From: a virus
Lineage: Duplodnaviria; Caudoviricetes
Reading direction: 5' to 3' (one strand)
DNA: 64,000 nt
Virus record (IMG/VR): IMGVR_UViG_3300025129_000005
How positions within the stretch are numbered: position 1 is the stretch's first letter; each line of letters begins with the position of its first letter. Shown here one piece after another: positions 40,475 to 41,028 of this stretch. Both the position numbers and the translations under genes were made by a program. The notes under the pieces were generated by a model. That model saw only the letters and a program-made list of their open reading frames with translations. It had not been told where the DNA came from and searched no databases.

Positions 40475-40768
40475 ATGAAAAAAGTATTGTTAATCGTTTT
40501 AATGTTGTTCTGTGCAAGCTTCGCTTATGCGGAATTAGGTTCACCAAATTTCACCAAGGTCTATCCGACCAGCAAGGGTGAAGTTACATTCAATCACTTG
40601 TCTCATTCAGTGAAAGGTGACAGTTGTGACGCCTGTCATGAGTGGGTCAATCAGTTCACCGAAGTTGGAATGAATAAGGATGTTGGTCACAAGGTTTGTA
40701 AAGTTTGTCATAAGGCAGATAAAACCAAGACCGCCCCGACTATTTGTACTGGATGCCATAAAAAATGA
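40475..40768 (+). CDS. Secreted triheme cytochrome c (c7/PpcA- or c3-like)
   Basis: Signal peptide MKKVLLIVLMLFCASFAYA; GEVTFNHLSH; CDACH, CKVCH, CTGCH; GH axial His; APT before heme 3. Confidence 0.88.
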   Translation: MKKVLLIVLMLFCASFAYAELGSPNFTKVYPTSKGEVTFNHLSHSVKGDSCDACHEWVNQFTEVGMNKDVGHKVCKVCHKADKTKTAPTICTGCHKK

Positions 40769-41028
40769 AAAAAATAATTATGACTCTGTTGTTGGTATTG
40801 ATATCAGAGTTTTGTTTTTCCTCAACAATATCGACAAAAAGGGGTCCTGTGGATTTTCCACATCAACCTCACACGTCAATAATGGGGTGTATGACTTGTC
40901 ATAACCCTCATGGTGGTATGATGGGTGGGTTTGGTGCCGCAGAAAGAACTCATGCGTTTTGTCAGTCGTGTCATGACCCGAACTTATTACCAGATAAGTG
41001 TAAATTTTGTCATAAACCAAAAAAGTAA
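40765..41028 (+). CDS. Second secreted triheme cytochrome c (c7-like)
   Basis: Signal peptide; GPVDFPHQPH; CMTCH, CQSCH, CKFCH. Confidence 0.85.
   Translation: MKKIIMTLLLVLISEFCFSSTISTKRGPVDFPHQPHTSIMGCMTCHNPHGGMMGGFGAAERTHAFCQSCHDPNLLPDKCKFCHKPKK

What the first reader, a model, noticed from the sequence alone, without database searches (positions are those of the whole stretch)
40475..41028. Phage-encoded tandem pair of periplasmic triheme cytochromes c
Seen: two coupled genes, each with a Sec signal peptide, an N-terminal (V/T)xFxHxxH motif and three CxxCH motifs. Established: this is the layout of cytochrome c7 (PpcA family, Geobacter/Desulfuromonas) and related c3 proteins, which need host Ccm maturation. 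Inference: the host is an anaerobic metal- or sulfur-respiring Desulfobacterota, and the phage supplements or reroutes periplasmic electron transfer during infection. Multiheme cytochromes are not among the commonly described phage auxiliary genes.
Basis: partly seen in the sequence, partly recalled or inferred. Interest (0 to 1): 0.85.

Follow-up and report, generated by a model that had tools for sequence, protein, structure and literature searches.

The report
Jumbo phage carries two triheme cytochromes
An uncultured T4-like giant phage from aquifers and springs carries two genes for small exported three-heme cytochromes of the c7 type, and every close relative examined keeps at least one, so this phage lineage probably supplies part of its host's periplasmic electron-transfer chain during infection.

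Summary
ORF1 (40475-40768, 97 aa) and ORF2 (40765-41028, 87 aa) overlap by ATGA. Each has a Sec-type leader, three CxxCH motifs and the three extra histidines of cytochrome c7.

- **ORF1:** it passes Pfam Cytochrome_C7, matches Desulfuromonas c7 and PpcB-E in the PDB, and its model superposes on them (TM 0.70-0.77).
- **ORF2:** it is a divergent c7-like protein by sequence profile only. Its fold model is poor.
- **Phage origin:** the genes lie in a 216-kb T4-like phage genome and have phage-like GC. They recur in over 20 contigs from aquifer, cold-spring and hot-spring samples.
a c7 gene sits in the same slot in all 12 related phage lineages I could read. The slot runs 64-69-aa ORF, conserved upstream element, cytochrome(s), GH108 endolysin. 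Synonymous sites are saturated and pN is far below pS.
- **Accessory genes:** ORF2-type genes occur in one subclade only. One relative adds a monoheme cytochrome c.
- **Cellular kin:** the nearest are Desulfuromonas and Desulfuromonadales MAG proteins (about 40% identity).
- **Open points:** the host is not identified, and heme attachment, expression and function are untested.

Best reading: host-matured periplasmic electron carriers acting as an auxiliary metabolic gene.

This scan noted the same thing before on other DNA (e1-5337556, e1-5345620). I found no paper describing it.

The parts
40077..40283 (+). Conserved 68-aa ORF of unknown function that marks the upstream edge of the cytochrome slot
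   Evidence: A 64-69-aa homologue lies just upstream of the cytochrome gene in L008, L012, L014, L015, L022 and L029. No Pfam match.
40301..40376 (+). Phage tRNA-Met (CAT), last gene of the tRNA region before the cytochromes
   Evidence: ARAGORN. A tRNA-Met also lies upstream of the c7 gene in L008 and further upstream in L009.
40395..40474 (+). Conserved upstream element of the cytochrome slot. The core TGTTAAATA-NN-GGTAAC is at 40434-40453 and the Shine-Dalgarno AAGGAG at 40461-40466. It is promoter- or operator-like, but its class is undetermined.
   Evidence: Alignment A3 of 9 lineages. The core is unique in the window. It occurs once per related locus, always about 26 nt before the first cytochrome start. 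The sigma-70 scan does not call it. There is no RNA hairpin support.
40475..40768 (+). ORF1: cytochrome c7-type triheme precursor, 97 aa. Signal peptide is residues 1-19 (40475-40531). Heme motifs are C51-H55, C75-H79 and C91-H95. Distal His are H41, H44 and H72.
   Evidence: Pfam PF14522 30.0 bits against a cut-off of 24.8. PDB 1EHJ E 1.9e-9, 3H4N E 3e-9. AF2 pLDDT 87.8. Foldseek TM 0.70-0.77 to c7 structures. All ligand residues are invariant in 75 homologues.
40765..41028 (+). ORF2: divergent c7-like triheme precursor, 87 aa, translationally coupled to ORF1 (ATGA). Signal peptide is about residues 1-19. Heme motifs are C42-H46, C66-H70 and C79-H83. Distal His are H33, H36 and H63. It also has an extra conserved H49 and a Met-rich loop.
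   Evidence: Pfam PF09699 27.5 bits against 20.6; PF14522 only 17.4 bits, below cut-off. Profile against the PDB: PpcE 3H34 E 4e-6 over the whole mature protein. 13 ligand and core residues are invariant in alignment A5. The AF2 model is poor (pLDDT 71), so the fold search was inconclusive.
41029..41036 (+). T4-type late-promoter motif TATAAATA directly after the ORF2 stop, 27 nt before the endolysin start
   Evidence: The same motif and flanking context occur before the endolysin in L008, L009 and L016. In L010 and L011 it lies before the ORF2-type gene.
41064..41642 (+). GH108 + PG_binding_3 endolysin, the conserved downstream neighbour of the cytochrome slot
   Evidence: Pfam PF05838 E 6e-21, PF09374 E 1e-10. 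It lies directly downstream of the cytochrome gene(s) wherever that end of the contig is present (11 of the 12 lineages; the short L011 contig ends in a partial ORF starting MSYF, as these endolysins do).

Best explanation
ORF1 and ORF2 are phage genes for two small, basic, exported triheme c-type cytochromes of the c7 kind.

Proposed mechanism; every step is inferred from sequence:
1. The pair is transcribed from a conserved element dedicated to this slot.
2. The precursors are exported by Sec and their leaders are cut after residue 19.
3. The host's cytochrome c maturation system (System I Ccm or System II CcsBA/ResBC) attaches three hemes to each protein at the CxxCH motifs. Three conserved distal histidines give bis-His ligation.
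4. The 8.6- and 7.4-kDa holoproteins join the periplasmic pool of electron carriers. That pool links inner-membrane quinol oxidation to periplasmic or outer-membrane terminal reductases.

The likely benefit is to keep respiratory electron flow, and so proton-motive force and ATP, going while a 216-kb genome is replicated. A related benefit would be a larger periplasmic electron-storage capacity.

The gene is an old, vertically inherited part of this T4-like phage clade, not a recent pick-up. Its ancestry lies with Desulfuromonadales-type c7 proteins. The actual host is not established.
For: Identity:
- Each protein has three CxxCH, an HxxH pair and one further His, at PpcA-equivalent positions.
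- ORF1 exceeds the Pfam c7 cut-off.
- ORF1 matches D. acetoxidans c7 (E 1.9e-9) and PpcD (3H4N, E 3e-9; E 7e-8 to 2e-5 for PpcE, PpcB and PpcC).
- The ORF1 model (pLDDT 87.8) hits only c7 structures in the top 19, with TM 0.70-0.77.
- The ORF2 profile matches PpcE and PpcD end to end (E 4e-6 and 9e-6).

Phage origin:
- The window holds UvsX, gp46/47, gp32-type SSB, primase, RNR and 21 tRNAs.
- The same sequence occurs on 20 contigs of up to 216 kb, from aquifer, cold-spring and hot-spring runs.
- Gene GC is 0.38-0.41, against 0.366 for the window and about 0.57 for a cellular PpcA-like c7 locus (L030).

Selection and age:
- A c7 gene occupies the same slot in 12 lineages with 27-43% GC.
- All endolysin relatives at 64% identity or more have it. 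Those at 52% and 43% do not.
- pS is saturated (0.5-0.99) while pN is 0.14-0.41, about 1.5-2 times the endolysin's dN.

Dependence on the host: a 98%-complete relative has no PF01578 or PF05140 match.

Plausibility of plugging in: any one Ppc paralogue, or one from another Geobacter species, restores Fe(III) reduction in G. sulfurreducens (bioRxiv 10.1101/2022.08.12.503762).

Ancestry:
- ORF1-type phage proteins and the Desulfuromonas/delta-MAG proteins share a group with 93/89 support.
- Phage monophyly is not rejected (AU p 0.27).
Against: - No heme attachment, expression or physiology has been measured.
- The host is unknown.
- ORF2 fails the Pfam c7 cut-off, and its fold model is too poor to test.
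- c7 proteins are not known to turn over fast, so the benefit of a phage copy is unclear.
- Sextuple ppc/pgcA mutants of Geobacter still respire electrodes.
- The fixed position beside the endolysin could point to a lysis-linked role instead. In L010 and L011 the ORF2-type gene follows the late promoter and overlaps the endolysin start.
- The class and timing of the upstream element are undetermined.
Confidence: 0.6

Rival explanations
1. Oxidative-stress protection. The phage c7 proteins feed electrons to a periplasmic diheme peroxidase (MacA/CcpA type) or other detoxifying acceptors. This would protect an oxygen-sensitive host, and the infection, from peroxide in redox-fluctuating groundwater.
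For: PpcA forms a redox complex with MacA peroxidase (PMC10582990, listed). Choi et al. have a section on triheme cytochromes being needed for oxidative-stress protection (section 11, heading only read). The habitat is aquifers and springs with redox gradients. One relative adds a class I monoheme cytochrome c, a type typical of oxidase and peroxidase electron donors.
Against: No peroxidase or other partner is encoded nearby. Nothing in the sequence separates this role from general electron shuttling. It is a sub-case of the same biochemistry.
Confidence: 0.12
2. Lysis-linked role. The periplasmic heme proteins report the redox or energy state of the envelope to the lysis machinery, like an antiholin or lysis timer, rather than boosting respiration.
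For: The cytochrome gene(s) lie directly upstream of the endolysin wherever the downstream end is present (11 of 12 lineages). Gaps are as short as 4-13 nt in L007, L012 and L015. In L010 and L011 the ORF2-type gene follows the late-promoter motif (one mismatch in L011), and its stop overlaps the start of the endolysin or, in L011, of the partial endolysin-like ORF. L021 has a 53-aa hydrophobic ORF between the c7 gene and the endolysin.
Against: The whole region is syntenic in these phages, so adjacency needs no functional link. In the window, L008, L009 and L016 the endolysin has its own TATAAATA after the cytochrome genes, and the cytochrome slot has its own separate conserved element. The leaders look cleavable rather than anchoring. 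An earlier unchecked note (e1-5379833) places a holin-like gene elsewhere in this genome. No cytochrome is known to regulate a holin.
Confidence: 0.1
3. Host DNA contamination or misassembly: the cytochrome genes belong to a bacterium and were joined to phage sequence by the assembler.
For: The cellular c7 family is centred on Thermodesulfobacteriota. Metagenome assemblies can be chimeric.
Against: The identical gene order was recovered on 20 contigs from independent samples, years and assemblers. The same slot is occupied in 12 divergent phage lineages. Gene GC matches the phage. The closest homologues whose context could be read are all phage-borne. Phage genes flank tightly on both sides on the same strand.
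Confidence: 0.01

Closest known systems
Cytochrome c7 (c551.5) of Desulfuromonas acetoxidans (PDB 1EHJ, 1HH5, 1NEW)
   Same: Best PDB sequence match of ORF1 (E 1.9e-9 over residues 29-97). Same three CxxCH plus three distal His in the same order, similar mature size (68 against 78 aa), exported and basic. Model TM 0.74.
   Different: Identity is only about 40%. ORF1 has a short extra N-terminal stretch with a clade-specific (D/N)FTK(T/V)Y motif and a longer link before the last heme. It is encoded by a phage. No biochemistry exists.
PpcA-E family of Geobacter sulfurreducens (PDB 1OS6, 3BXU, 3H33, 3H4N, 3H34)
   Same: Same fold for ORF1 (TM 0.70-0.77). Best profile matches for ORF2 (PpcE E 4e-6, PpcD E 9e-6). 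These are periplasmic triheme carriers that are functionally promiscuous, which makes a foreign copy plausible as a working part.
   Different: In the tree the phage ORF1-type proteins do not group with a PpcA-like cellular protein (L030). They group with a separate Desulfuromonas/delta-MAG subfamily. ORF2-type proteins form their own long branch (98 SH-aLRT). They carry an extra conserved His and a Met-rich loop absent from Ppc proteins.
[quoted passage not shown]
   Same: A large phage carries a host-type redox protein that must work inside the host's own electron-transfer chain.
   Different: The amoC-phage gene is membrane-anchored NapC/NirT type, nearly identical to the host copy, and found in one phage group. 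Here the gene is a soluble c7, only about 40% identical to any cellular protein found. It is conserved clade-wide in a fixed slot with its own upstream element, and in this phage it is paired with a second, divergent c7.

Membership tests
Cytochrome c7 (triheme class III cytochrome; Pfam PF14522) | Three CxxCH heme-attachment motifs in a mature protein of about 70 residues | tested here: met
   ORF1 has 3 motifs in a 78-aa mature protein. ORF2 has 3 motifs in a 68-aa mature protein.
Cytochrome c7 (triheme class III cytochrome; Pfam PF14522) | Three further His at the positions that give bis-His ligation (HxxH before heme motif 1, and one His before heme motif 2) | tested here: met
   H41, H44 and H72 (ORF1) and H33, H36 and H63 (ORF2) align with the equivalent His of solved c7 proteins. 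They are invariant or nearly invariant (H72: at least 90%) in 75 and 39 homologues. Which His serves which heme is taken from my memory of the PpcA structure.
Cytochrome c7 (triheme class III cytochrome; Pfam PF14522) | Score above the curated Pfam cut-off (24.8 bits) | tested here: met
   ORF1 scores 30.0 bits and meets it. ORF2 scores 17.4 bits and does NOT meet it. ORF2 passes only PF09699 Paired_CXXCH_1 (27.5 against 20.6). ORF2 is therefore filed as c7-like, not as a clear family member.
Cytochrome c7 (triheme class III cytochrome; Pfam PF14522) | c7 fold | tested here: inconclusive
   ORF1 is met: pLDDT 87.8, the top 19 PDB hits are all c7, TM 0.70-0.77. ORF2 is inconclusive: pLDDT 71, pTM 0.38, best TM 0.36. 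The Atlas's own model gives TM 0.67 to a c7-like cluster. All models lack heme.
Cytochrome c7 (triheme class III cytochrome; Pfam PF14522) | Export to the periplasm by a cleavable Sec signal peptide | tested here: inconclusive
   There is an MKK n-region, a 14-residue hydrophobic core and small -3/-1 residues, conserved across homologues, and no lipobox. No dedicated predictor was available.
Cytochrome c7 (triheme class III cytochrome; Pfam PF14522) | Covalently bound low-spin hemes with low redox potentials | not testable with these tools
   Needs expression, heme stain, mass spectrometry, spectroscopy and redox titration.
Phage auxiliary metabolic gene | Encoded inside a bona fide phage genome, not host contamination | tested here: met
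   T4-like replication and recombination genes and 21 tRNAs in the window. A 216-kb contig and 20 contigs carrying the gene. Phage-like GC.
Phage auxiliary metabolic gene | Kept by selection in related phages | tested here: met
   12 lineages with the gene in the same slot. pN 0.14-0.41 against saturated pS.
Phage auxiliary metabolic gene | Expressed during infection and altering host metabolism | not tested
   No RNA holder was listed, and there is no culture.

The most novel reading that the evidence does not exclude
This T4-like phage clade keeps a dedicated 'cytochrome slot' with its own conserved control element next to the endolysin. It has filled that slot repeatedly with small periplasmic c-type cytochromes: c7, a second divergent c7, and a monoheme c. 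The cytochromes would not simply top up respiration. They would form a phage-specified redox module that couples the electron-transfer state of the host envelope to the timing of lysis, or that acts as a periplasmic electron capacitor set by the phage.
Probability: 0.12. Interest if true: 0.85.

Novelty: new variant of a known kind. Interest (0 to 1): 0.68.

Why it matters
Known phage auxiliary genes for electron transport come mostly from photosynthesis and a few oxidative pathways. Here a whole clade of giant phages keeps a soluble multiheme cytochrome. Metal- and sulfur-respiring bacteria use this kind of protein to carry electrons across the periplasm.

If the proteins are matured and active, phages take part directly in anaerobic respiration and perhaps in extracellular electron transfer in aquifers. 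That would bear on iron, sulfur and contaminant-metal cycling.

The phage proteins would also be a natural set of highly divergent, minimal c7 variants for engineering electron-transfer chains.

The claim can be tested with existing tools: ccm co-expression, and Geobacter ppc-null strains.

Tried and rejected
- **GenBank phages:** no DNA or protein match for the region or for either cytochrome. The nearest cultured phages share only about 25% identity in gp46, so no host clue comes from isolates.
- **RNA runs:** no RNA holder was listed.
- **Host search:** 20 kb of the window against 401 genomes of the phylum of a delta-proteobacterial MAG matched only the tRNA-Met gene, among the best 150 of about 550 matches listed. 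No spacer or prophage signal appeared there. The window has no whole genome on hold.
- **ORF2 fold:** the AF2 model is low-confidence and the Foldseek search was inconclusive.
- **dN/dS:** synonymous sites are saturated, so only pN far below pS can be stated. A first script timed out.
- **Upstream element as sigma-70 promoter:** the simple scan does not call it.
- **Upstream element as RNA hairpin:** -1 kcal/mol and no real covariation.
- **Upstream element as a general phage promoter:** it is unique in the window.
- **Six-frame Pfam c7 search of viral records:** it missed the known c7 of G003. Negative family searches on short proteins are therefore weak. The negative PF01578 and PF05140 searches concern long families that rang in control genomes.
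- **Duplication origin of ORF2:** not supported. ORF1 and ORF2 share 26% identity and sit in separate parts of the tree. An ancient duplication cannot be excluded.
- **ORF1-ORF2 complex:** no prediction was run, because I make no binding claim and the six hemes could not be included.

Full report
**What is there.** Two same-strand ORFs occupy the stated interval. ORF1 runs 40475-40768 (97 aa), with AAGGAG 9 nt upstream of the start. ORF2 runs 40765-41028 (87 aa). The ORF1 stop and the ORF2 start overlap as ATGA, and ORF2 has no clear Shine-Dalgarno of its own, so translational coupling is likely.

Each protein begins MKK followed by a hydrophobic core and small residues at -3/-1. Each has an HxxH pair, three CxxCH motifs and one more conserved His. 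The mature proteins would be 78 and 68 residues, with pI 8.6 and 8.9. Among 374 ORFs of 40 aa or more in the window, only these two have more than one CxxCH.

**What the proteins are.**
- ORF1 passes the curated Pfam cut-offs of Cytochrome_C7 (30.0 against 24.8 bits) and Cytochrom_CIII.
- Against solved structures, its best matches are cytochrome c7 of Desulfuromonas acetoxidans (E 1.9e-9) and PpcD, PpcE, PpcB and PpcC of Geobacter. Every heme ligand is aligned.
- An AlphaFold model built on 75 homologues has pLDDT 87.8. Its top 19 PDB hits are all c7 proteins, with target-normalised TM 0.70-0.77.
- ORF2 is more divergent. It passes only Paired_CXXCH_1 and falls below the c7 cut-off (17.4 bits).
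- A two-sequence profile of ORF2 matches PpcE and PpcD over the whole mature protein (E 4e-6 and 9e-6).
- In a 39-sequence alignment, F31, H33, H36, H63 and all three CxxCH of ORF2 are invariant.
- The ORF2 model is poor (pLDDT 71) and the fold search says nothing. The Atlas's own model gives TM 0.67 to a c7-like cluster.

I therefore file ORF1 as a c7 family member and ORF2 as c7-like. ORF1 and ORF2 share only 26% identity.

**Is it phage DNA?** Yes.
- The window encodes UvsX-like recombinase, gp46/gp47-type SbcCD, a gp32-type SSB, primase and ribonucleotide reductase. It also encodes ThyX and 21 tRNAs.
- All large ORFs are on one strand.
- The same cytochrome protein (one substitution, K83E) is on 20 contigs of up to 216 kb.
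- The stretch is held by runs labelled aquifer (19 samples, 2017), cold spring (2019) and hot springs (2025).
- The genes have GC 0.38-0.41, against 0.366 for the window and about 0.57 for a cellular PpcA-like c7 locus (L030).
- Nothing similar is in GenBank phages. The closest cultured phages share about 25% identity in gp46. This is a deep, uncultured T4-like lineage.

**A clade-wide gene in a fixed slot.** A word-index search found only a handful of homologues. An exhaustive profile search found 850, of which 59 had E of 1e-10 or better.

Every top-scoring homologue whose context I could read lies on phage-like DNA in the same arrangement. The order is a 64-69-aa ORF, a conserved non-coding element, the cytochrome gene(s), a GH108 + PG_binding_3 endolysin and, on most longer contigs, SAM-lyase genes.

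The loci are L007, L008, L009, L010, L011, L012, L014/L029, L015, L016, L021 and L022. Together with the window, that makes 12 lineages with 27-43% GC.

Searching IMG/VR with the endolysin instead gave the same picture. The three relatives found there (67-74% identical) all carry a c7 gene upstream, as does every endolysin relative at 64% identity or more in my set. The two relatives at 52% and 43% do not.

Synonymous sites between orthologues are saturated (pS 0.5-0.99), while pN is 0.14-0.41. That rate is about 1.5 to 2 times the rate of the endolysin. The gene has been inherited vertically for a long time under purifying selection.

The ORF2-type gene occurs only in the window, L009, L010 and L011. 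A 98%-complete 236-kb relative (G003) has a single c7 gene. L015 instead adds a class I monoheme cytochrome c in front of its c7 gene. An unrelated viral contig, L013, carries a tetraheme class III cytochrome c3.

**Regulatory context.** About 26 nt before the first cytochrome start codon, nearly every lineage with upstream sequence has TGTTAAATA-NN-GGTA or a near variant. In most, TTACA lies 15 nt further upstream. A strong Shine-Dalgarno follows (alignment A3).
- The core is unique in the 64-kb window and occurs once per related locus.
- In L015 it precedes the extra monoheme gene, so it belongs to the slot.
- The simple sigma-70 scan does not call it.
- It is not supported as an RNA hairpin.
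- It shares TAAATA with the T4 late-promoter motif.

Its class, and so the timing of expression, is open.

The endolysin has its own TATAAATA at 41029-41036, directly after the ORF2 stop. The same is true in L008, L009 and L016. In L010 and L011 that late-promoter context lies between the ORF1-type and ORF2-type genes (one mismatch in L011). There the ORF2-type stop overlaps the start of the endolysin or, in L011, of the partial endolysin-like ORF. In those phages the second cytochrome is probably made late, together with the endolysin.

**Ancestry and host.** In a 42-row tree, all phage ORF1-type proteins fall in one group. That group also holds a cellular subclade with two Desulfuromonas sp. 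MAG proteins and an uncultured delta-proteobacterial MAG protein (support 93/89, inside a 96/82 group). It is separate from a PpcA-like cellular protein.
- Inside the group the tree is unresolved, and phage monophyly is not rejected (AU p 0.27).
- ORF2-type proteins form their own long branch.
- Atlas neighbours of both proteins are mostly Thermodesulfobacteriota.

This supports a Desulfuromonadales-like origin of the gene, at about 40% identity. It does not identify the host. A DNA search of 401 genomes of that phylum matched only the tRNA-Met gene among the matches listed. No RNA or other linkage data could be obtained.

The wide GC range of the clade and the monoheme cytochrome of L015 warn that hosts may differ. 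An earlier unchecked note of this scan (e1-5379818) reports a probable selenocysteine codon elsewhere in this genome. That would fit a host with selenoprotein machinery, but I did not test it.

**How it most likely works.** I found no CcsA/CcmC/CcmF or ResB homologue in the 98%-complete relative, while control genomes rang. The phage must therefore rely on host Sec export and host cytochrome c maturation. This is an inference.

Once matured, two small basic triheme proteins would join the periplasmic carrier pool. Work on Geobacter shows that this pool is promiscuous. Any one Ppc paralogue, or one from another species, restores Fe(III) reduction (bioRxiv 10.1101/2022.08.12.503762). A foreign c7 could therefore work without a co-evolved partner.

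I put 0.6 on this carrier/AMG reading. That covers sustaining respiratory flux or enlarging periplasmic electron storage during replication of a 216-kb genome. The rivals are:
- electron supply to periplasmic peroxidases (0.12);
- a lysis-linked redox role, suggested by the fixed position beside the endolysin and the late-promoter arrangement in L010 and L011 (0.10);
- contamination (0.01).

Heme binding, expression, localisation and physiology are all untested.

**Novelty.** My full-text searches found no report of c7 or c3 cytochromes on phages. [quoted passage not shown] Multiheme cytochromes are also discussed in papers on large extrachromosomal elements of methane-oxidising archaea (abstracts only).

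This scan has already noted phage c7 genes beside endolysins on other DNA (e1-5337556, and the same sequence in e1-5345620). It has also noted other phage-borne multiheme cytochromes (e1-5362098, e1-5342977, e1-5351702). Those are AI notes. My context survey independently agrees with the first.

I rate this a new variant of a known kind: a phage auxiliary gene for an electron carrier. It is distinguished by being a multiheme c-type cytochrome that needs host maturation. It is also conserved clade-wide in a dedicated slot and, in this phage, paired with a second divergent copy.

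Noticed in passing
window 40434-40453 (element spans about 40395-40474); also L007 9961-9975, L012 3961-3975, L015 4634-4648 and others: A conserved non-coding element (TTACA-N15-TGTTAAATA-NN-GGTA, then AAAGGAG) occurs once per locus, always in front of the first cytochrome gene of the slot, across phages of 27-43% GC. It is neither a clear sigma-70 promoter nor an RNA hairpin. Its class is unknown.
   Followed up: partly
L010 about 130-171 and 449; L011 540-596 and 871-874: In two relatives the T4 late-promoter context lies between the two cytochrome genes (TATAAATA in L010, CATAAATA in L011). 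The second cytochrome's stop overlaps the start of the endolysin (in L011, of the partial endolysin-like ORF). That cytochrome is therefore probably co-expressed late with the lysis enzyme.
   Followed up: partly
L013 3905-4246 (IMGVR_UViG_3300033146_001603): A different viral contig from the same sample as L012 encodes a 113-aa tetraheme class III cytochrome c3 (PF02085 E 2.7e-11). It is not next to an endolysin.
   Followed up: partly
L015 4674-4991: One relative carries an extra class I monoheme cytochrome c (PF13442/PF00034) between the conserved element and its c7 gene. The slot accepts different kinds of c-type cytochrome.
   Followed up: partly
window 40903-40935 (ORF2 residues 47-57) and homologues P0007-P0009: ORF2-type proteins share an extra conserved His and a Gly/Met-rich loop (CH-x-x-H-GG(G)-MMG-x-F) after the first heme motif. 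It is absent from Ppc proteins. It may be an alternative axial ligand or a metal-binding site.
   Followed up: no
L007 5905-6242; L009 167-507: Related phages encode their own tmRNA, with tag peptides ADQNINYALAA and AEDNFALAA. This could be used for host inference.
   Followed up: no
L021 2283-2444: A 53-aa strongly hydrophobic ORF lies between the c7 gene and the endolysin in one relative. It is a possible holin-like protein.
   Followed up: no
window 36526-37452, 41665-42309, 42176-42967, 43006-43506: Other host-interaction or metabolic genes lie near the cytochromes: an APS kinase domain protein, two tandem SAM-lyase-like genes and an HSP20 chaperone.
   Followed up: partly
window 40077-40283: A 68-aa ORF with no family match is conserved directly upstream of the cytochrome slot in most related phages (N-I-G-F-E-E-M motif).
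   Followed up: no
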